64,000 bases of DNA from NCBI RefSeq assembly GCF_009914755.1, contig NC_060946.1. One strand, given 5' to 3'. The position numbers were made by a program, and so were the translations under genes. Positions 29,601-39,682 of this stretch are shown here, piece after piece (position 1 is the first letter of the stretch; each line of letters begins with the position of its first letter). A model generated the notes under the pieces. The model was not told where the DNA came from. It saw only the letters and a program-made list of their open reading frames with translations, and ran no database searches. Source of the stretch: the human T2T-CHM13v2.0 reference genome, Homo sapiens.

Positions 29601-30987
29601 TCACCCCTAGGAGCTGCCCATCCCTGTTGGCAGTGAGGCAATGGGTCAAGAGAAGGGACAGTGGCCAGGACCCTGACCAGGCTGGAAAGGCCTCAGTTGC
29701 ACCTAGGCCAGTCCCTGTCCTGCTCAGTCCTATAACCCTAATGAAGAATCAACTCAAGAAGGCCTGGAGGACCACCCAATAGTGACTGGCATTCTATCCA
29801 GACAAGCAAAACAGAGAGACACTTCTAGACGGGGGTGGGGGGACACCCTGAGTTTAGGTGACAGGGAAGTATAGGCCAACGCCCATGCGGTTCTGAGGTG
29901 CTGCCCGAGCTCACAGCAGCCCGTGGCCGGTGGCCCTGCCTTCCACCTGCTTCTCACCAGCACCGTCTTGTTTCATTTTCATGACAGCACACATGGGCTG
30001 CAAATGGGGTAACTGAGATGCAGTCGCCTGTCCATGGTCACCGGGAAGTCAGGGGCAGAACTCCAGGTCATGCTCAGGCCCATCACGGCCAGCTGATGTT
30101 CAGGTCACTGCAAGCTGGGCCCCCAACTACTGGCTGGATGAGACCTGGCTGTGATGGGCCAGCATGAGGGCCACAGCAGTGGTCAGGAGTAGGGCAAAGG
30201 CTGGGCACCGGCCAAGATGAAGCCTGGGCTCGAAGCCCCAGCACACACCAGAGTGGAGACTTGGAGGCCTCTGTCCAGGGCCCAAAGAGCTGCCTGGGGC
30301 CTTTGCTAACCCCACATCATCACCAAATGCCCATCCATGGCTGGACGACCCACGCCCTTGTGGACCCTACGTTGGCTGTAGGCAAAACTCACTGCTTGGA
30401 GAGGTCTGTCACAATGTCCAGAAGGCTCTTCATCTTGCTCAGGTCCTTTTTTCTGTCTGGGACAGCAGAGGGGACCATAAGACACGAGCCTGGTGGCATC
30501 CCCAGGGCACTGGCCCCCACCCCGGCCGCAGCCCACCTTCACTCTTGTCGATCTTGTTGACCACGCGGTGCAGGGGCTTGATGTGCTTGGACAGCTGCTT
30601 CAGCGTGTCCCAGTACAGCTGCTCCTGGCCCGGCTGGAGCCGGCTGGACTCATGACAGAGCTGGGGTCACTGCAGGACTATGGGCGGGTGAGGCCTCAGC
30701 CCTAGACCCTCAGGCTGGGAGCTTGGGCTCTGAGGGCCCCAGAGCACGCATGAATGGTATGACCTGAGGCCTTTTAAAGGTGAGGGGTGACCTAGCACCT
30801 CAACCTGCCAGGCCGTGTACAGCTCACATGATGGAGCTGTGGGTCCCAGGCCTGGCTTAGCAGGTGTGTGTAAAGGACTAGGGGAGGGGACACTGGAGTT
30901 CTGTGGGGTTTGTGCTGTTTCTGGGTGCTGGGAAGGCTGCAGTGTGGAGCTGGGCAGGAAGCTACGGGGGACAGAGCAGGGCTGGAG
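26620..30987 (-). pseudogene. MED15P: Unprocessed MED15 pseudogene: last 8 exons (30861-30987, 30537-30669, 30393-30456, 29357-29421, 28778-28940, 28522-28688, 27987-28074, 27157-27293) plus partial 3' UTR
   Basis: Peptides QTPQNSSVPSP, RKKDLSKMKSLLDI, PLKTLPKCEITLEKLKNDMAV, TKQQYLCQQLLDAVLANI, VVCTRKHRLEDDERQSIPSMLQGEVARLDPK, DKDLPSVPP, NPFL..QLPDKH..ACLSAA*. Stops, frameshifts and broken splice sites. Confidence 0.95.
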
Positions 30988-31352
30988 CTGCAGCCAAGCG
31001 GGAGAAACATGGGAGCTGGGCCCAGGCAAGGCAGCCACCAAACTCACTCTGCAACAAACCACAGTGGTGACCAATCCCCATCCTCCTTCCCATGCCAGCT
31101 GGGCGGGACCTCACCCGAAACAAGGGGTGGGAAAACTGGCAAGACCAGCACCCTGAGCACAGAGCCAAGAGCACACACAGCTGGCATCCTGCTTCTGGAA
31201 GGTGATGGGATGCCAGCGAGACTGCAGGGTGGACACTTCCTTCAGCTAGAAGTCTTACGAGCATACCAGCTGGGTCTGCACCAGCTGAAAACACCGGCTG
31301 TTCCATGGCTGCTCACTTTCCAAATACCAAGAAATGGAAAGAAAAGGGAAGT

Positions 31353-32007
<655 letters not shown>

Positions 32008-32346
32008 TCATTTTCCTGCTGGGCTTGACCTGAGGTGTTTAGATGAAGTGAGGTCCTGGACAGGGGAGGGACGGTCCAAAGAGGCAAGAGCAGCAGCTTC
32101 CACTGGCTGGGCAGTCACTACATCCCACCACCAGGCTGGCTCTCAACACACACTACGTCTTTCCTCTGCATGAAAGACCAGGAAAAGGGAGCCCCCAGCA
32201 GGCCTGAGGACATGTGGAGACACACAGGGAAGTGTGGCAGTTGGGTTCCAACCTTGTCACACAAGGTGGTCAGCCTCCCCCAGCTGTAAGTGAACATAAC
32301 TTCTGTGGTGTGTTTCACACAAGACTCCATCTAAGAAAGAAGATGA

Positions 32347-32790
32347 CTGCTGGGCACGGTGGCTCACACCTGTAATCCCAGCACTTTGTTAGGCTGAGGA
32401 GGGCAGATCACCTGAGGTCAGGAGTTCGAGACCAGCCTGGCAAACATGGTGAAACCCAGTCTCTACTATACTTTTACTGATAAAGCAGACAATGAACATA
32501 ATGTATAGAAATCTTGAGCACAAATAGACATCAAAAGCACAAACAACAAAAGCAAAGATGTAATTACATTAAACTTGTCAAAAGTATAAGCAACAAAGGC
32601 AAATATGTAATTACATTAAACTTAAAACCTTCTGCAAAGCAGAGGAAGCAATCAGTAGAATGAAGAAACAACCCAGAGAATGGAACAAAATATTTGCAAA
32701 CTATGCATCAGCCAAGGGGTTAATACACAAAATATATAAAGAACTCAAACTACTCAAAAGCAAAAATACAAATAATCTGATTTAAAAAAA
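32347..32790 (+). mobile_element. Alu left arm (~32347-32469) fused to an L1 ORF2 3' fragment
   Basis: The Alu stops at CTCTACTA and is followed by L1-like sequence containing a ~45-bp tandem duplication. Confidence 0.75.
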
Positions 32791-34000
32791 TCTACCCAAA
32801 ACCTTTGTCTCTCACCATTATTTCTCCACCTTCTTTTCCCGACCGCCTTTGGTCTCCTCCCCCTCGCCACCCATTTTCTTCCTCCATCTACCCCAAAACT
32901 TTTTCCCCACCATTTTTCCCCCACCGTCATTTCGCAAAGCCTTCTCTACTCTCCCGCTCACCACCCTTTTCCCCATCTATCTGCCCAAACACTTTCCCCA
33001 CTGTTTTCTCCCACCGTCTTTTCCCCTTCTCCCTGGCCACCTTCTTTTTCCCCGTCCCACTCTCATCACCATCTTTTGCTCCTTCATCTAAGCAAAAGTA
33101 TTTTCCCCCCTCTTTTCCCAAAACCTTCTCCTCACTCCTGCCGCTCACCAACCTCTTTTCCCCCTTCATCTACCCAAAAACTGTTTTCCTCATCGTCTTT
33201 CCCCTGCTCCTCCTTGCCACCCTCTCCCTTCTCCATCTACCCAAAAACATTTCCCCACAGCCTTTTCGGAAAGCCTTCTCCCCACTCCTGCTCACCTCCT
33301 TCTTTTCCCCCTCCATCTATCCCTCAAAGTTCTCCCCACCGTCTTTTCAGTATTTCCCCCTTCCCACTCATCCTCTTTGCCCTATCCTGCTTTCCACTCT
33401 GTTTTGCCCTCCATCTACCCCAAACTATTTTTCCATTTTTTCCCCAACCCTCTTTCCCTGCTCCCTCTCGCCACCCTCTTTTCTCCTCCTCCTGGTCACC
33501 CTCTTTCCCCCGTGCATCTACCCAAACACATTTTACCCATCATCTTTTCTTCCCCGCCCCGTCTTTCTTTTCTGCCTGCTGTGTTTTTGCAAAACCCTGT
33601 CTTCCTCCCGCTGGCCACCCTTTTCCCTTCCCCCACTTGTTACCCTCTTTTCCCCCTCTATCTACCCAAAAACTTTTCTCCCCACTGTCTTTTCACAAAA
33701 CCTTCTCTCCCTACTGCTTGCCCCCATTTCCCTCCCACCCTCTTTCCTCCTCCCCCTTGCCACCCTCTTCTCCTCCATCTACCCATAAACTTTTTACCCA
33801 CTGTCTTTCTGCAAAACCTTCCCTCCCTCCCGCTCCCCACCCTGTTTCTCCCCCTCCATTTACCCAAAAACTTTTTTCCCACCATCTTTTCCCCACTGTC
33901 TTTTTGCAACACCTTCTCCTGCTCGCTATTCTCTTTTCCCTTTGTCACTAACCACCCTCTTTACCTCCCTCCATCTATCCCAAAACTATTTTCCTCCTCC
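32790..34000. repeat. Degenerate pyrimidine-rich minisatellite (anchor CCATCTACCCAAAAC, ~13 units of ~70-140 bp)
   Basis: Recurrent CATCTA(C/T)CC..AAAAC..TTTTCCCC..GCCACCCTC motifs; very G-poor + strand. Confidence 0.85.
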
Positions 34001-34190
34001 TACCTCTTGCACCACACTGCTTTCTCCGTTGCCGTCACCACAAACCGCAGCGAGGCGAGCCGTCCTACCGCGGCTCCAGCCTCCAGCGTACGGCCTGTGA
34101 TTACCCATTCCCGGTCCTCTAAGCTGGGCCCTGAGCAGCTCTACAGGAAGATACCGGAACCTTAAAGGGGCAGCCTTCCCTTCAGGATCA

Positions 34191-34435
34191 TTCATATACT
34201 GAGGTTATATATAGATGAAGGTTCCTAGACTGCATGTTCTGATTGGATGAGAAAAACCCTCCAGGGTTACTGGGATTGGACTTTATTATCATGTTCTGAT
34301 TGGATGAGAGCAAGTCTTAAGACAACAAATCACAGCATGAAAATAAAGCCCAATCAGAGTAGGCCTAGAGGTTTTTCTCTCATCCAATCAGAACATGTAG
34401 TCCAAGAACGCATGTGCGTAACCTCAGTATATAAA
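34191..34435. promoter_or_regulatory. Symmetric bidirectional promoter core: TATA boxes plus CCAAT arrays
   Basis: + strand: CCAAT at 34350 and 34384, TATATAAA at 34428-34435. - strand: ATTGG at 34242, 34275 and 34299, TATATGAA at 34191-34198, TATATAA at 34205-34211. Confidence 0.65.
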
Positions 34436-34759
34436 GCACGGTGAGAGCAACCTCAGGTCATTTCAGGTTCTTCAGTGCTGGTGTGCTGCTCTTCGCTTAG
34501 AGAACTAGGAGAGGGGACCGCCATCTGCTGCCAGCTGGAGCCAGGGCACTGGCTGTCTCCGGTTGGTGGTGGGGATGGAGCGGTCGAAGGGTGGCCTGCA
34601 GTGGGAGCTTTTCCTGCCGGGCAGGAGGAAGAGTAGAAGGGAGAGGCACGGACGCATGCTGGAGGCTGGAGCTTGCGCCACCGCAGCTCGCCTCGCTGCG
34701 GTTGGTGGTGATGTCGGACACTGCAGGTCTTCCAGAGTGGTAGACGTGCCGTTGGGTAG

Positions 34760-35420
34760 GTGAGTTTTCTGGGGCTGCACTGCCCACCTCTGGGGGCAGG
34801 GGTTGGGTGTCCTTTTGGGGCTCACTGCCCAAGGCTGCACTCCCTGTGGCAGGCAGCTGGTTCGGGGCACTCTCTGGGGTATTGCTGGCGGTTGGGGGGG
34901 GGTTGGCTGGCTATCACTGGCTACACTGCCTGCGGTGGCGGGGGTGGTGGAGGGAGGCAGATTGTGTGCACTAATGTGTACTGCTGGTTGTGGGTGATGG
35001 GTTAGGGGCACTATTTTCTGCTCCACTGCCTGCGGCAGGGGGTGGGTTGGGTGGTTATCTGGAGCTATAATGCTGGCAGTGGGCGGTGGTTTAGGGGTGT
35101 TATGGAGTGCTGCACTTCACTTACTTGGGGTGCACTATCAGGAGTTGCACTGCCCGTGGTGGGGTTGGGGGGGGCGGGTTTGGGGCACTGACTAGTGCAG
35201 CAACCCCCTTGGCTGGGTCGGGTTGTGGGCCCTGTAATGTGCTACACTGCCTGTTGGGGGTGGTGGCTTGGGGGGGTACTGGGGTTATATGCCTGCAACT
35301 GGCACGGGATGTGTTGGGTGTGCTATCCCGGGGCTACACTGCTGATGGCAAGGGGCAGGCAGGTTAGGGGTGCTGTCAGGGGCTACACTGCGTGGCATTG
35401 TTGGGCTGCAGAGGTGGCAG
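34760..35420 (+). repeat. G-rich degenerate tandem repeat (GGGGCTACACTGCC..GGGTTGGG units)
   Basis: Repeated GGGG(C/T)(T/G)(A/G)CACT motifs and many G-runs. Confidence 0.7.
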
Positions 35421-36883
35421 CAACAGCAACAGTGGTGGCCTCCTTTCTCCTTCCAGTGACCATTCTTCTTTTCCCAGATTCCAGACTCTAGAGGGTAATC
35501 TTCTCCTGCTCATGCAATTGTGAGCACAGCAGGGCCCACACACCCCCCGTGGTTCCCCAGCCTGTGCCTCATGCTGCCTGTTGGGGAGACCACCTGGGAC
35601 TACCGGGCAGGGATTAGTGGGAATCATGGGGGACTGTGGGGCCAGGGCACTGTAGGTGGAGGCGTCAGGAACAGGAACCAGCACTTGGGTGGGGAGGGCT
35701 GCCTAGGTCTGAGTTTTTCCTAGTCCTGCTCCTGGAGGAGTGCAGCCCTGGTGGGCCCAGCAATTTCTGGCCAGCTGCACCTGAACGGGGGCACTTTCAG
35801 CGAAGGCACTCACACCCACCTCAGGCCCCAGTTCTTGGCCAGCTTTGCCAGAAGTAGAAGCTGGACTTTGGAGGGTGGGTGTGAGTGCCTTTCCTGAAAC
35901 TGGTCCTTGCCACCCAGTGGCCAGCGTGACAAGGTGAGGCTCTAAGGCTACCACTCTCTGCATCCCATTCTAGGCTTTTCTGGTTTTGCCCTCCCAGCTG
36001 CTCCAAGCCAGGATGGAGGAGGAGGACAAGGAAGAGTCACCTGTGGTAAACTGGAGCCTGCATATGGCTCTGCAGCTGGTCTCACGAGATTGGTGGCAGC
36101 GACGGAGACTGCAGCTCGACTGGAGTGGTAGGAGGGTGCCCGCGGGGGCAAGGTGGTAGGAGCCTTGTAGGGTGGGCTGCTGCATTGAGGGCGACAGCGG
36201 TTGTATTGGCATCGGTGCTAGTGGTGGTATCAGCATTAAGTCTGGGGGCTGGGAAGGGGGAGTAGGAGCGCTGCAGGGCCCAGCCCGACCTGGGGATGGG
36301 GAGGAACCTGCGGGTACTGTACCAGGCCTTGGTGGCAGCAGTGGAGGTGCACCTAGGGAAAGGAGGAGTCCTTCCCCTTCTCCTGCAATCTGTGGAGGGT
36401 GCCCTCCTCCTGCTGGTGACTGAGCCAGGCGTGAGGGGCAGGATTGTCTTATTCTTAACAAAACTTAGGGGGTGACTATTTGTGTATCTTGTTTCTTTTT
36501 TGTTGTGATAGTCTCTGACTTTTTCAAATTTCATGAATTGGGGAGGGGATAAAAGGTATCATAATAGGCCTTCTACTTCCCACACCTGTTCTTTTTTCTT
36601 TCTTCTAGTCTGTATTGTCTTCTTCTCATCTTCTTGTTTCTCTTTATTTTCTTTTGCTGCTGCTTCTATTTCATGTTTCTATTGTGGTTTATCCTCCTTT
36701 TTAAATTTTCTTTATGCCAAGCAATGGCCTTAACAAACAACAAACCGAAACTGAGTTAAAAAGAAACTACTGGTCCCTGTGTTGTATTTTTAAAATAAAT
36801 GGTCCCTTACTGTGTTTTAGAGATGAGAAAAAAAATCAGTTGTATTAGTCACTTGAATAGGTATGCTTTCATGATCGTGTTAA

Positions 36884-37023
36884 CCCACTTATGCCTAGTG
36901 TTCCATTATTGGAATACTGAGCATGAGGAATTAACTTACATCCTACTGCCCAAGGTCATTGACAAGGTCTGATTTTTCACTCATGCAAAAATTCAAAAAA
37001 TTGCAGCCTCTTGCATAAGTGGG
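36884..37023. mobile_element. MER85 (PGBD3-derived piggyBac MITE), full length
   Basis: 140 bp; TIRs CCCACTTATGC/GCATAAGTGGG; TTAA on the left, CTAA on the right; internal palindrome GTTCCATTATTGGAAT. Confidence 0.9.
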
Positions 37024-37234
37024 CTAATGCGTTGTAAGTAGTTACTCAAGGAATCAAAAATGAAGCATCACATAAAATATCGGTAGCAAACAGCCATTTC
37101 ATTTCTGTCACATATTTATCTGGAGCTATGCAAGAGTCACCGGGGTAATAAGTTCCAGTTTATGAGATTATTAAGTGAACTGTATTCTCTTCATTTTATT
37201 TGTCTGCCACCATTTTCTTTTTTTCATTCATTCT

Positions 37235-37946
<712 letters not shown>

Positions 37947-38799
37947 TAAGGCAAAGAGTCACAACCAAAAACAAGGCTTTATTAACTTTTGCCTCTAAGA
38001 ACCTGCAGTGTTGAGCCCTCTTTTATTCCTAGTATTACTACCTTTGGTGTGAACCGTTTTTTTATTTTTATTTTTACTCATTCTTCTGGAAGTTTATACA
38101 TTTTCTTGCCTGCTTTAAAGACAATCTATATTATTTTTCAAGCCCACAGTAATGTGTAAGGCCTGTAATTTGGACACTTTTCAGTTATGTTTAAGGTTAT
38201 GAGCATGTAAGATACTGTTGATATATGGAAGAATATGTCTAATTACCACTAGATAGCTTATATTGAAGAGATAATATCTAAATGTTTGTCCAGAGTTGAT
38301 TGGGTGCAGTTTCATAGGTGTGTTTCTCAATAAATTGCATCCATGTTTTAAAGCATATAGGAATTTGAATACTGTTTAACCTCATATAGGCCTTGTTTGT
38401 AGGTTTAATATTTCTGAAGACAAAAGTCATCACAGCCCCCTTTAAGGTTCAGTAATATTAATAAAATTTGAGATACACAGGGTTAGAATCCAACAAATTC
38501 AGAAGAAAATTGTAAAATTATATAGCTGTAGAGCAGGAATGAAACTCAGGTTCTAAGTTCCTAGGGGACCATGAGCTACCATACAGGGGCATCAGTGACT
38601 GGGCATAGAGTTGGCAAAATTGCAGGATGGTAAGAGAGTGAGCTGTGGAGCCTAACTCTATGTGAACATGAATTTTTAAACTGCATGGTGCCTCAGTTTA
38701 TCCATCTTTATGGTGGCGACAGTAGTAAGTTTTTCTTTTTCTGCTCAGTTGTCCGAATTATTTCCCTTGTCTGTCTTGTTGCCACTCTTGATGCTCACG

Positions 38800-39682
38800 T
38801 GAGAGGATCTAAGGTAATTTCTGACAGCCTGGGACTCCTTAAGGAAAAATAGAAGGTTCGACAAACCCCATTTTAGGAGAAACTCTGTTTTCCTCATGGA
38901 ACCCCAAGAACTTTAAGCAGACAGGTCCTTCTCAAAACCTAAGGCTCTCCTCTGTTTTGCCTTGCGTTATCTGACCTTTTTGGTTTAGGTGGACATCAGA
39001 AATTAGTAGGGGAGAGAGATCTAAAGAAAGTTGTAGATGTGAAGATGTATTGATGGTAAGAAAAGTTATGAAGGAAAGAAATGTTGTATGAGAGAGGATC
39101 TTATATGGCAAATTGTTGTCCTAAAGTAGAATGACTAATTACGAAAGAGGAAAATACAGGACAGGTCAGAAAGTTTAATCATGTCATAGATGCTCTGTGG
39201 AAGTTGTGTTATGGTTCATGAAATGGGAAAGAAAATCTTAACAGCTGCTAGATCTTTTTCTGTCTAGAAGTGTTGTGTATGTGATGTATATATAAAGGAG
39301 CTCTAGTGGCTCGGCTTAAAAGAAAATGAAAGCTCTTAAATATTTTGTCAGAAAAACAGAAGCTCTAATGCCTTTTATTTCATGTGAGTTCAGTAATCTT
39401 GGGGAAGTAAAGACAGTGTTAAAATCATTGGTAAAATAAAAATATCTTCAAAATTTATCCATTTGGTCTAATTTAAGTCAAAGTTCAGAAGTGCTTTAAT
39501 GTCATGAATTGATTGTTTGACTTTGGAAAATAGTTCTGTTTATCTGGTTTGGAGCCGTTAGATTTCTAGGTAAGGCCTCCAGACAGGTGGAGTTAGCCAT
39601 GTCTCCTAGCTATGCTGGAAAGAGTCAGACTTTATCTACGGTTCCGTCTTGAATCCTAAACTCTGCACCTGGTATGTAATTA
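38800..39682 (+). mobile_element. ERV1/MER4-group internal fragment
   Basis: AACCCCATTTTAGGAGAAACTCTGTTTTCCTCATGGAACCCC and similar MER4-group leader motifs; no LTR seen. Confidence 0.5.

What the first reader, a model, noticed from the sequence alone, without database searches (positions are those of the whole stretch)
34025..34720. ~700-bp degenerate palindrome forming a mirror-image bidirectional promoter (REP522/BAGE-type)
Seen: 34231-34303 is the reverse complement of ~34325-34399 (CATGTTCTGATTGGATGAGA.. vs ..TCTCATCCAATCAGAACATG). The symmetry extends to TATACTGAGGTTA (34195) / TAACCTCAGTATA (34419), CTCTAAGC / GCTTAGAG, and CCGCAGCGAGGCGAGC..GCTCCAGCCTCCAGC (34045-34087) / its reverse complement (34658-34701), centred at ~34315. 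Each side has a CCAAT array and an outward-facing TATA box. Recalled knowledge: the arms closely resemble the BAGE 5' UTR (GGTATCT..GAGCTGCTC..GCTTAGAGGACC..GCTGGAGGCTGGAGCC), and REP522 is a palindromic repeat reported to act as a bidirectional promoter in cancers. Inference: an inverted duplication created a portable two-way NF-Y/TATA promoter that seeds new transcripts in duplicons.
Basis: partly seen in the sequence, partly recalled or inferred. Interest (0 to 1): 0.85.

Follow-up and report, generated by a model that had tools for sequence, protein, structure and literature searches.

The report
REP522-type palindromic promoter repeat copy
The palindrome is real, but it is one copy of an old, already catalogued human repeat family (the one that supplies the promoter of the BAGE cancer-testis genes), carried here inside a pericentromeric duplication, so it is ordinary rather than new.

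Summary
Observation confirmed. Window 34035-34711 is an imperfect palindrome. Its core, 34191-34435, scores 178 against its own reverse complement, versus 25 +/- 4 for shuffles. It did not arise locally: 47 other places in this genome carry the same core, and all match in both orientations. In a tree of 28 non-redundant copies all left arms separate from all right arms (100/98 support), so the inversion predates the family's spread. Eleven loci that carry both published BAGE primers (+32, +99) are family members. A paper places a large REP522 region at the BAGE locus, and REP522 is described as largely palindromic and enriched among cancer-activated promoters. The family consensus has six mirrored CCAAT boxes; this copy keeps five. 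BAGE +1 maps to window 34474 (+) and, mirrored, to 34155 (-). TATA boxes are poorly conserved and are deleted in BAGE-type copies. I could not test promoter activity, bidirectionality or NF-Y binding at this copy, and I could not run a Dfam/RepeatMasker match.

The parts
34035..34711 (.). Whole imperfect palindrome, between the outermost inverted pair
   Evidence: (I3, I5)
34191..34435 (.). Palindrome core, centred at 34313-34315. AT-rich and CpG-poor (GC 0.39, 3 CpG).
   Evidence: score 178 versus 25 +/- 4; as single-stranded DNA it folds at -61.2 kcal/mol versus -22.6 +/- 3.2, z -11.95; composition.
34239..34246 (-). CCAAT box L1 (CCAATCAG on the - strand)
   Evidence: Pentamer intact in 22 of 28 representative copies.
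34275..34279 (-). CCAAT box L2 (ATTGG on +). The window's flank differs from the family's CTGATTGG.
   Evidence: Intact in 22 of 28
34296..34303 (-). CCAAT box L3 (CCAATCAG on the - strand)
   Evidence: Intact in 21 of 28.
34326..34330 (+). Box R3, degenerate here (CAAAT); the family consensus is CCAAT
   Evidence: CCAAT in 21 of 28 representatives; the window is one of 2 with CAAAT
34350..34357 (+). CCAAT box R2 (CCAATCAG)
   Evidence: Intact in 27 of 28.
34384..34391 (+). CCAAT box R1 (CCAATCAG), 86-90 nt upstream of the BAGE +1 equivalent
   Evidence: Intact in 26 of 28.
34428..34436 (+). Right, outward-facing TATA box (TATATAAAG)
   Evidence: TATAWAW at this place in 12 of 28 copies. Deleted in BAGE-type copies.
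34191..34214 (-). Left, outward-facing TATA-like sites on the - strand: TATATGAA (34191-34198) and a second run (34206-34214) that falls partly in a gap of the family consensus
   Evidence: TATAWAW on the left in 20 of 28
34474..34759 (+). Right-arm first-exon-like stretch, from the BAGE +1 equivalent (34474) to a donor-like site TAG|GTGAGT (GT at 34760). A TATA-directed start would lie near 34458-34460. GC 0.62, CpG o/e 0.55.
   Evidence: The start site is inferred by homology and was not measured.
34012..34155 (-). Left-arm first-exon-like stretch. On the - strand it aligns to BAGE-type +1..+129 (102 of 148 columns). GC 0.60, CpG o/e 0.73.
32830..34000 (.). C-rich, degenerate, internally repetitive flank that is shared with the other copies, including the BAGE-type ones
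   Evidence: self-hits at 65-78% identity. Not detected by TRF..
32521..37217 (.). Duplicon module that carries the palindrome. It is colinear at 78-85% identity with copies on chr2, 7, 13, 17, 20 and 21, and continues past two Alu-sized breaks to about 39.4-40.0 kb.

Best explanation
This is one copy of the old palindromic repeat family catalogued as REP522, whose right arm supplies the promoter and first exon of the BAGE cancer-testis genes. It sits in a pericentromeric 22q11.1 duplicon that is 98-100% identical to two chr14 copies. Shown by sequence: a CpG-poor core with three CCAAT boxes on each strand in mirror order (five intact here), spaced 24-34 bp apart. The core is flanked on each side by an outward-facing TATA-like box and then a GC-rich, CpG-retaining, exon-1-like arm. 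Inferred mechanism: NF-Y binds the CCAAT array and recruits the transcription machinery to start sites about 90 nt outside the outermost box on each side, near 34458-34474 on + and 34155-34168 on -. In somatic cells the copy is held silent by DNA methylation and H3K9me3. It can fire in germ cells, the 8-cell embryo and hypomethylated tumours. The palindrome formed once, before the family spread, and the copies examined were then moved by segmental duplication together with their flanks.
For: Family. The 696-bp query gave 127 matches on chr2, 5, 7, 9, 10, 13, 14, 15, 17, 18, 20, 21 and 22 (72 candidates, 40 scored, so a lower bound). All 48 of 48 stored loci (the window plus 47 others) match the core in both orientations. 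Age of the palindrome. In a tree of 56 arms from 28 representatives (clustered at 96%), L and R are each one side of a single branch: support 100/98, 100% of 200 bootstrap trees, 0 of 500 shuffles as low. BAGE link. The primers BAGE.BS+32f and BS99f from PMC3757347, written with Y at the converted positions, hit 11 places exactly and 3 more with 1-2 mismatches; the reversed control pattern hit none. Both primers lie 67 nt apart in 11 of 11 exact loci. Those loci align with the window from about 32.8 to 36.5 kb. BAGE +1 falls at window 34474, and the - strand of the left arm aligns to +1..+129 starting at 34155. REP522 link. PMC3560060 says the BAGE locus contains a large REP522 region that is H3K9me3-marked in liver and transcribed when that mark is lost in Tc1 mouse (passage). 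The abstract in PMC4896275 describes REP522 as ~1.8 kb, largely palindromic and strongly enriched among the most cancer-activated CAGE promoters. Other passages report up-regulation at the 8-cell stage, enrichment in lncRNA exons and BAGE loci hypomethylated in 98% of cancers. Motifs. Four of the window's six CCAATCAG sites lie in 34239-34391. The six boxes are intact in 22, 22, 21, 21, 27 and 26 of 28 copies. Bin 34260-34359 is the best-conserved 100 bp of the 3.5-kb module (0.93). CpG o/e is 0.55-0.73 in the arms against 0.26 for the window.
Against: I could not run a match to the REP522 consensus, so the name rests on two indirect links. The palindromic part is about 0.68 kb here and 0.19-0.8 kb in the 12 other loci tested, not the ~1.8 kb 'largely palindromic' of the abstract. 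I have no expression, CAGE, ChIP or methylation data for this copy, and the RefSeq table from the hub lists no transcript start at the palindrome. Evidence for constraint is weak. Box columns score 0.94 against 0.88 for non-box core columns (Mann-Whitney p 0.009), but the copies are related, so this is not a true probability. The conservation peak of 0.93 barely exceeds CpG-poor flank bins at 0.88-0.89. This copy has lost box R3, and its left TATA is weakened. The only family start site I could anchor, BAGE, is on the R arm and lacks the TATA box, so neither bidirectionality nor a role for TATA is shown. That the boxes fit NF-Y preferences is recalled knowledge, not a test.
Confidence: 0.72

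Rival explanations
1. Same family, but this copy is an inert relic: permanently heterochromatic, never used as a promoter, and passively copied with its duplicon.
For: The hub's RefSeq table lists no transcript start at the palindrome. Box R3 is mutated, and the left TATA is weakened relative to the family consensus. The arms are among the least conserved bins of the module (0.63-0.76). The BAGE locus is H3K9me3-covered in liver.
Against: The arms keep CpG o/e 0.55-0.73 against 0.26 for the window, which is hard to keep under constant germline methylation. Five of six boxes and the right TATA are intact. The copy is 98-100% identical to its chr14 twins, so short-read expression would be hard to assign and annotation may miss it.
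Confidence: 0.22
2. A one-way promoter. Only the R arm (the BAGE-type side) fires, and the L arm is a non-functional mirror left over from the ancient inversion.
For: The only start site I could anchor, from the BAGE primers, is on the R side in all 11 exact-primer loci. The right half of the core is better conserved than the left (0.934 versus 0.849).
Against: The - strand of the left arm matches BAGE-type exon 1 slightly better than the right arm does (69% versus 66%). TATAWAW is kept more often on the left (20 of 28) than on the right (12 of 28). CCAAT boxes are, from recalled knowledge, orientation-independent.
Confidence: 0.15
3. A structural element rather than a promoter. The core would act as a hairpin: a small-RNA precursor when transcribed through, or a cruciform or fragile site that promotes rearrangement at duplicon edges.
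For: The single-stranded core folds far better than shuffles (z -11.95, 0 of 200 as good). A preprint states that the hsa-miR-5701 hairpin overlaps the Rep522 repeat.
Against: The arms are only 74-79% identical, which is poor for cruciform extrusion in duplex DNA. No Rfam family reached its gathering score; the best hit was 33.1 bits against a threshold of 55. I could not obtain the miR-5701 sequence from any held text, so I did not test whether it overlaps this core. Outward-facing promoters would not transcribe the core.
Confidence: 0.05
4. A recent local inverted duplication, an assembly artefact, or a DNA transposon bounded by terminal inverted repeats.
For: Only the palindromic shape itself.
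Against: There are 47 other loci with the same two distinct arms, and the L/R split lies at the base of the tree. Flanks are colinear for 4-7 kb in the copies examined, with a shared left edge at about 32521-32665 well outside the palindrome.
Confidence: 0.01

Closest known systems
REP522 (RepeatMasker class Satellite/telo; described as an unclassified, largely palindromic interspersed repeat of ~1.8 kb)
   Same: It is palindromic and multi-copy, in pericentromeric, acrocentric-short-arm and subtelomeric duplicated regions. It is present at BAGE loci. It carries promoter-like motifs, which fits the reported enrichment among cancer-activated CAGE promoters.
   Different: The detectable palindrome is about 0.68 kb here, and at most about 0.8 kb in the 12 other loci tested, not ~1.8 kb. 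The consensus match was not run. The copies examined share much longer colinear flanks than an ordinary interspersed repeat would.
BAGE gene 5' region (promoter plus exon 1 of the BAGE cancer-testis family)
   Same: It has the same six-box core and the same exon-1-like arm. BAGE +1 maps to 34474 (+) and, mirrored, to 34155 (-).
   Different: It belongs to a different subfamily: 72-78% identity over the core and 66-69% over exon 1. Neither BAGE primer site is exact in the window. The window keeps the right TATA box that BAGE-type copies have deleted. A BAGE-type locus is followed by a segment 93% identical to chr7:153.59 Mb, and the window's locus is not among the hits to that segment. That this chr7 segment is KMT2C/MLL3 is recalled.
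Multi-CCAAT, NF-Y-dependent repeat promoters active in germline and cancer, such as LTR12 (recalled)
   Same: A repeat-borne array of closely spaced CCAAT boxes that is silenced epigenetically and reactivated on demethylation.
   Different: It is not an LTR. The mirror-image arrangement gives two outward faces. NF-Y binding was not tested here.

Membership tests
REP522 | Significant match to the Repbase/Dfam REP522 consensus | not testable with these tools
   No repeat library is available. NCBI soft-masking as listed by the hub does not cover 32009-37182, and it gives no family names.
REP522 | Largely palindromic unit of ~1.8 kb (abstract in PMC4896275) | tested here: inconclusive
   The palindrome is clear, but it spans 0.68 kb here and 0.19-0.8 kb in 12 other loci. 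The flanks at 32.5-34.0 kb and 34.8-36.2 kb do not align as reverse complements.
REP522 | Present as a large block at the BAGE locus (PMC3560060) | tested here: met
   All 11 loci with both BAGE primers carry the same core in both orientations and align with the window over about 32.8-36.5 kb.
REP522 | Multi-copy, mostly in telomeric, pericentromeric or duplicated regions | tested here: met
   There are at least 48 places on 13 chromosomes, many on acrocentric short arms and near centromeres, and one within about 0.2 Mb of the chr5 end.
REP522 | Holds transcription start sites that are activated in cancers | not testable with these tools
   No expression data. The BAGE start was placed in the R arm only by homology.
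BAGE gene | Exact BAGE exon-1 primer sites at +32 and +99 | tested here: not met
   The pattern search, allowing up to 2 mismatches, finds 14 places, none of them in the window. The window's homologous stretch is 66-69% identical.
BAGE gene | Promoter module joined downstream to the chr7q36-derived segment | tested here: not met
   Hits to the downstream segment of a BAGE-type locus are on chr13, 15, 21 and chr7:153.59 Mb, not at chr22:16.2 Mb.
NF-Y/CCAAT-TATA divergent promoter | CCAAT boxes with NF-Y-preferred flanks about 60-150 nt upstream of each start site | tested here: met
   Four CCAATCAG sites plus one plain CCAAT lie in 34239-34391. The outermost boxes are 86-91 nt from the BAGE +1 equivalents. 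The flank preference and typical position are recalled.
NF-Y/CCAAT-TATA divergent promoter | Divergent start sites and factor occupancy | not testable with these tools
   No CAGE or ChIP data are available here.

The most novel reading that the evidence does not exclude
The six-box core may be a maintained NF-Y platform that fires in both directions in germ cells and at embryonic genome activation. It could be the recurrent birthplace of hominoid duplicon transcripts. BAGE would be the case where the R arm was joined to a chr7q36 fragment. At this locus the L arm, about 3 kb upstream of the - strand MED15P7 exon at 30857-31109, may be the real start of the MED15P7/NF1P6 pseudogene transcript, instead of the predicted first exon beyond 64 kb. 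The core's hairpin might also be the source of the small RNA annotated as miR-5701.
Probability: 0.2. Interest if true: 0.5.

Novelty: already known. Interest (0 to 1): 0.2.

Why it matters
The result explains the striking palindrome as a known repeat, so it should not be counted as a discovery. The details may still help anyone annotating T2T pericentromeres. The family's promoter core is a mirrored six-CCAAT array that is older than the family's spread. The BAGE start site lies in one arm. The TATA boxes are dispensable. The copies travelled with their duplicons. Together these give concrete coordinates (34155 on -, 34458-34474 on +) for checking whether silent duplicon copies like this one start unannotated germline, embryonic or tumour transcripts.

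Tried and rejected
Extension of the palindrome into the flanks: I aligned 31000-38000 against its own reverse complement. Apart from Alu pairs, only the known outer pair and short matches appeared, so the C-rich left flank and G-rich right flank are not detectable mirror images.

Tandem Repeats Finder on 32000-37200 found only a 47-bp x 2 repeat at 32531-32623. It missed the degenerate array at 32830-34000.

Rfam, 33500-35300 at E <= 1: 8 matches, all below their gathering scores (best Phe_leader, 33.1 bits against 55). I read them as generic hairpin hits; no miRNA family matched.

miR-5701 route to a second REP522 link: a preprint says the miR-5701 hairpin overlaps Rep522.

MED15 origin: the neighbouring MED15P7 exons (30391-31109) are shared only with two chr14 copies, the parent gene at chr22:20.98-20.99 Mb and a short chr2 piece. 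The nearest family copy to the parent lies about 74 kb away at chr22:21.07 Mb. The palindrome therefore did not arrive with the MED15 fragment.

ORFs: only one ATG ORF of at least 90 aa overlaps 32500-37200 (36082-36534, - strand, 150 aa, low complexity). I did not pursue it.

Kaczkowski 2016 (Cancer Res) is not held, so I could not see what it says about REP522 anatomy or bidirectionality. Horie 2017 I know only from a citing passage and reference entry.

A search for BAGE plus CCAAT found 13 papers; none of the 10 listed appeared, from title and abstract start, to concern the BAGE promoter, and I did not open them.

Full report
- I1: 34221-34256 / 34374-34409, 36 nt, 89%.
- I4: 34290-34313 / 34374-34397, 24 nt, 96%.
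- I9: 34191-34207 / 34419-34435, 17 nt, 94%.
- I3: 34035-34060 / 34686-34711, 26 nt, 96%.
- I5: 34073-34095 / 34650-34672, 23 nt, 87%.
- CTCTAAGC (34117) / GCTTAGAG (34487).

A gapped local alignment of 33900-34900 with its own reverse complement returns 34191-34435 with score 178. One hundred shuffles gave 25.1 +/- 4.1, with a maximum of 40. The arm-to-arm global alignment has 200 matches and 53 mismatches, and scores 187 against 48.4 +/- 8.2 for shuffles. The core is centred at 34313-34315. The outer pairs are centred about 50-60 nt further right, because the right arm holds two partners for left block 34040-34095 (an inner one near 34520-34575 and an outer one at 34650-34711). The right arm is therefore about 115 nt longer. 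Folded as single-stranded DNA, the core reaches -61.2 kcal/mol, against -22.6 +/- 3.2 for 200 shuffles (z -11.95).

**2. It is a family member, not a local event.** The genome holding the window is available (the window is C22:16182001-16246000). The 696-bp stretch gave 127 matches on chr2, 5, 7, 9, 10, 13, 14, 15, 17, 18, 20, 21 and 22. Only 40 of 72 candidates were scored, so this is a lower bound. Two chr14 copies are 98-100% identical; the rest are 70-82%.

I stored 48 distinct places, the window included. All 48 of 48 match window 34220-34400 in both orientations, so every copy is palindromic. Self-comparison of the window and 12 re-fetched 9.9-kb loci found a self-complementary core in 13 of 13. 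Its length was 190-610 nt at 67-84% identity, or up to about 0.8 kb when outer pairs are counted.

I clustered the aligned cores at 96% identity, which left 28 representatives. I then cut each at the window's centre and built a tree of the 56 arms. All 28 left arms lie on one side of a single branch and all 28 right arms on the other (support 100/98; 100% of 200 bootstrap trees; 0 of 500 label shuffles as low). One caveat applies: each copy was oriented by its best match to the window. That choice decides which arm is labelled L but cannot by itself create a clean split. The two arms were therefore already different in the common ancestor of all copies. The inversion is old, and I see no sign of arm-to-arm homogenisation within copies.

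**3. How the copies spread.** In 12 re-fetched loci the homology to the window is not confined to the palindrome.
- It is colinear from a shared left edge (32521, 32578 or 32659-32665 in 9 of the 12) through to 36.2-37.2 kb.
- In the chr2, 7, 10, 17, 20, 21 and 22 copies it then continues past two Alu-sized breaks, as far as about 39.4-40.0 kb in most of them.
- The right-hand part (37940-39400) is itself a separate interspersed repeat that also occurs at places lacking the palindrome (834 first-look candidates).

These copies therefore derive from one ancestral locus that was propagated by segmental duplication.

The neighbouring MED15P7 exons (30391-31109) are shared only with the two chr14 twins, the parent gene at chr22:20.98-20.99 Mb and a short chr2 piece. 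The MED15 fragment and the palindrome module are thus separate pieces of a mosaic, joined across the Alu cluster at 31.35-32.47 kb.

**4. Link to BAGE and to the name REP522.** I did not rely on a remembered BAGE sequence.
- PMC3757347 prints bisulfite primers named BAGE.BS+32f and BAGE.BS99f (passage).
- Written with Y at the converted positions, the first primer hits 11 places exactly and 3 more with 1-2 mismatches. The reversed control pattern hits none.
- The second primer lies 67 nt downstream in 11 of 11 exact loci, as the primer names predict.
- All these loci carry the family core. They align with the window from about 32.8 to 36.5 kb at 65-79% identity.
- Counting back from +32 places BAGE +1 opposite window 34474.
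- The - strand of the left arm aligns to BAGE-type +1..+129 starting at 34155 (102 of 148 columns, 69%). The right arm aligns at 71 of 108 columns, 66%.
- A stretch about 4-5 kb downstream of the BAGE-type start is 93% identical to a single place at chr7:153.59 Mb. This fits the published origin of BAGE by juxtacentromeric reshuffling. I saw that title only in a reference list; that the donor gene is MLL3/KMT2C is recalled.

The REP522 name comes from text I read:
- PMC3560060 states that the BAGE locus contains a large REP522 region, H3K9me3-marked in liver and transcribed in Tc1 mouse liver (passage).
- The Kaczkowski abstract in PMC4896275 describes REP522 as ~1.8 kb, largely palindromic, unclassified and strongly enriched among the most cancer-activated CAGE promoters.
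- Other passages report a peak at the 8-cell stage, the RepeatMasker class Satellite/telo, enrichment in lncRNA exons and citation as a cancer marker.

The name remains an inference, because no repeat library could be searched. The palindromic part I can detect is also shorter than 1.8 kb.

**5. Anatomy and likely mechanism.** The family consensus has six CCAAT boxes, three per strand in mirror order. In the window they are L1 34242-46, L2 34275-79, L3 34299-303 (ATTGG on +), and R3 34326-30, R2 34350-54, R1 34384-88.
- This copy has CAAAT at R3.
- Four of the six CCAATCAG sites in the whole 64-kb window fall within 34239-34391. The whole-window expectation is 3.3.
- Across the 28 representatives the pentamers are intact in 22, 22, 21, 21, 27 and 26 copies.
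- Centre-to-centre spacing is 24-34 bp.
- The outermost boxes lie 86-91 nt from the two BAGE +1 equivalents.
- From recalled knowledge, this flank (CCAATCAG) and this position are typical of NF-Y sites.

The right TATA box (TATATAAAG, 34428-36) would direct a start near 34458-34460. The left one is weakened to TATATGAA on the - strand (34191-98), against a family consensus reading TATATAAA.

TATA is not a stable family feature. TATAWAW is present in 12 of 28 copies on the right, 20 of 28 on the left and 10 of 28 on both sides. It is deleted in the BAGE-type group.

The arms outside the TATA boxes are GC-rich and keep CpG (o/e 0.73 for 34000-34190 and 0.55 for 34440-34760, against 0.26 for the window). 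That suggests periods without methylation in the germline. On the + strand a donor-like TAG|GTGAGT at 34757-34765 would close a first exon of about 285 nt. On the - strand the nearest comparable site is at 33298.

My best reading is an NF-Y-type CCAAT-array promoter with two outward faces, silenced by DNA methylation and H3K9me3 and released in germline, early embryo and hypomethylated tumours. The sequence anatomy, the family relations and the homology to the BAGE start are shown. Factor binding, activity of this copy and use of both faces are inferred.

**6. Evidence for constraint is modest.**
- In a 10-copy alignment of the 3.5-kb module, bin 34260-34359 is the most conserved (0.93). CpG-poor flank bins reach 0.88-0.89, and the CpG-rich arms are the least conserved (0.63-0.76).
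- Box columns are somewhat more conserved than other core columns (0.94 versus 0.88, Mann-Whitney p 0.009). The copies are related, so this is only suggestive.

**7. Comparison, novelty and verdict.**
- The element works like, and almost certainly is, a REP522 copy.
- It is not a BAGE gene. Neither primer site is exact, and the chr7-derived segment is not attached.
- REP522, its palindromic nature, its promoter activity in cancers and its presence at BAGE are all in print.
- I could not confirm in the held texts that REP522 has been called a bidirectional promoter. The two papers containing both words use 'bidirectional' for other things, and the key paper is not held.
- The finding is a correct reading of a known repeat. 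Interest is low.

What may be worth keeping are the mirrored six-box anatomy, the evidence that the inversion predates the spread, and the concrete start-site coordinates to check for unannotated transcripts from this copy and its chr14 twins.

Noticed in passing
window 32830-34000: A C-rich stretch with many internal self-matches at 65-78% identity (a degenerate tandem array, period not determined). Tandem Repeats Finder missed it. It is conserved as part of the module in the other copies, including the BAGE-type loci.
   Followed up: partly
window 32531-32623: A 47-bp x 2 tandem repeat (89% matches) that sits right at the shared left edge of the duplicated module (32521-32665 in 9 of 12 loci).
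   Followed up: no
window 37940-39400: This stretch travels with the palindrome in many copies (82-91% identity), but it is also found at places without the palindrome (for example chr9:106.7 Mb, chr22:32.6-32.8 Mb, chr8:78.6 Mb and chrX). With 834 first-look candidates it looks like a separate interspersed repeat; the family was not identified.
   Followed up: partly
window 30391-31109 (MED15P7 exons, - strand): Query positions 1-646 match the parent gene at chr22:20991433-20992039 (78%). The last 72 nt match chr22:20979966-20980037, so about 11.4 kb of the parent is missing between them in the pseudogene. Only the two chr14 twins share this block in full.
   Followed up: partly
L021-L032, L047, L048 (G000 chr5:181.84 Mb, chr9:44.2 Mb, chr13 x4, chr15:5.48 Mb, chr18 x2, chr21 x4, chr22:11.1 Mb): The published BAGE +32 primer site occurs at 14 places in this assembly (11 exact). 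They include acrocentric short arms of chr13, 15, 21 and 22 and a site about 0.2 Mb from the chr5 end.
   Followed up: partly
window 34260-34360; L020/L033/L056 (chr15:18.6 and 19.98 Mb): A preprint says the hsa-miR-5701 hairpin overlaps Rep522. The palindrome core folds as a long hairpin, and I recall that the MIR5701 genes lie on proximal chr15, where family copies exist. I could not obtain the miRNA sequence from a tool, so the overlap is untested.
   Followed up: partly
window 35792-35820 / 35874-35902: A separate 29-nt inverted repeat (90% complementary, 53 nt apart) in the G-rich right flank. Unexplained.
   Followed up: no
G000 chr2:130.56-131.98 Mb, chr13:18.31 Mb, chr14:13.23/13.79 Mb, chr15:18.6/19.98 Mb, chr18:15.03 Mb, chr21:11.72 Mb: The closest copies of the module lie where, from memory, POTE paralogues sit; POTEH is 47 kb downstream of this copy. 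The module may therefore be part of the POTE-associated duplicon. Not checked against annotation.
   Followed up: no
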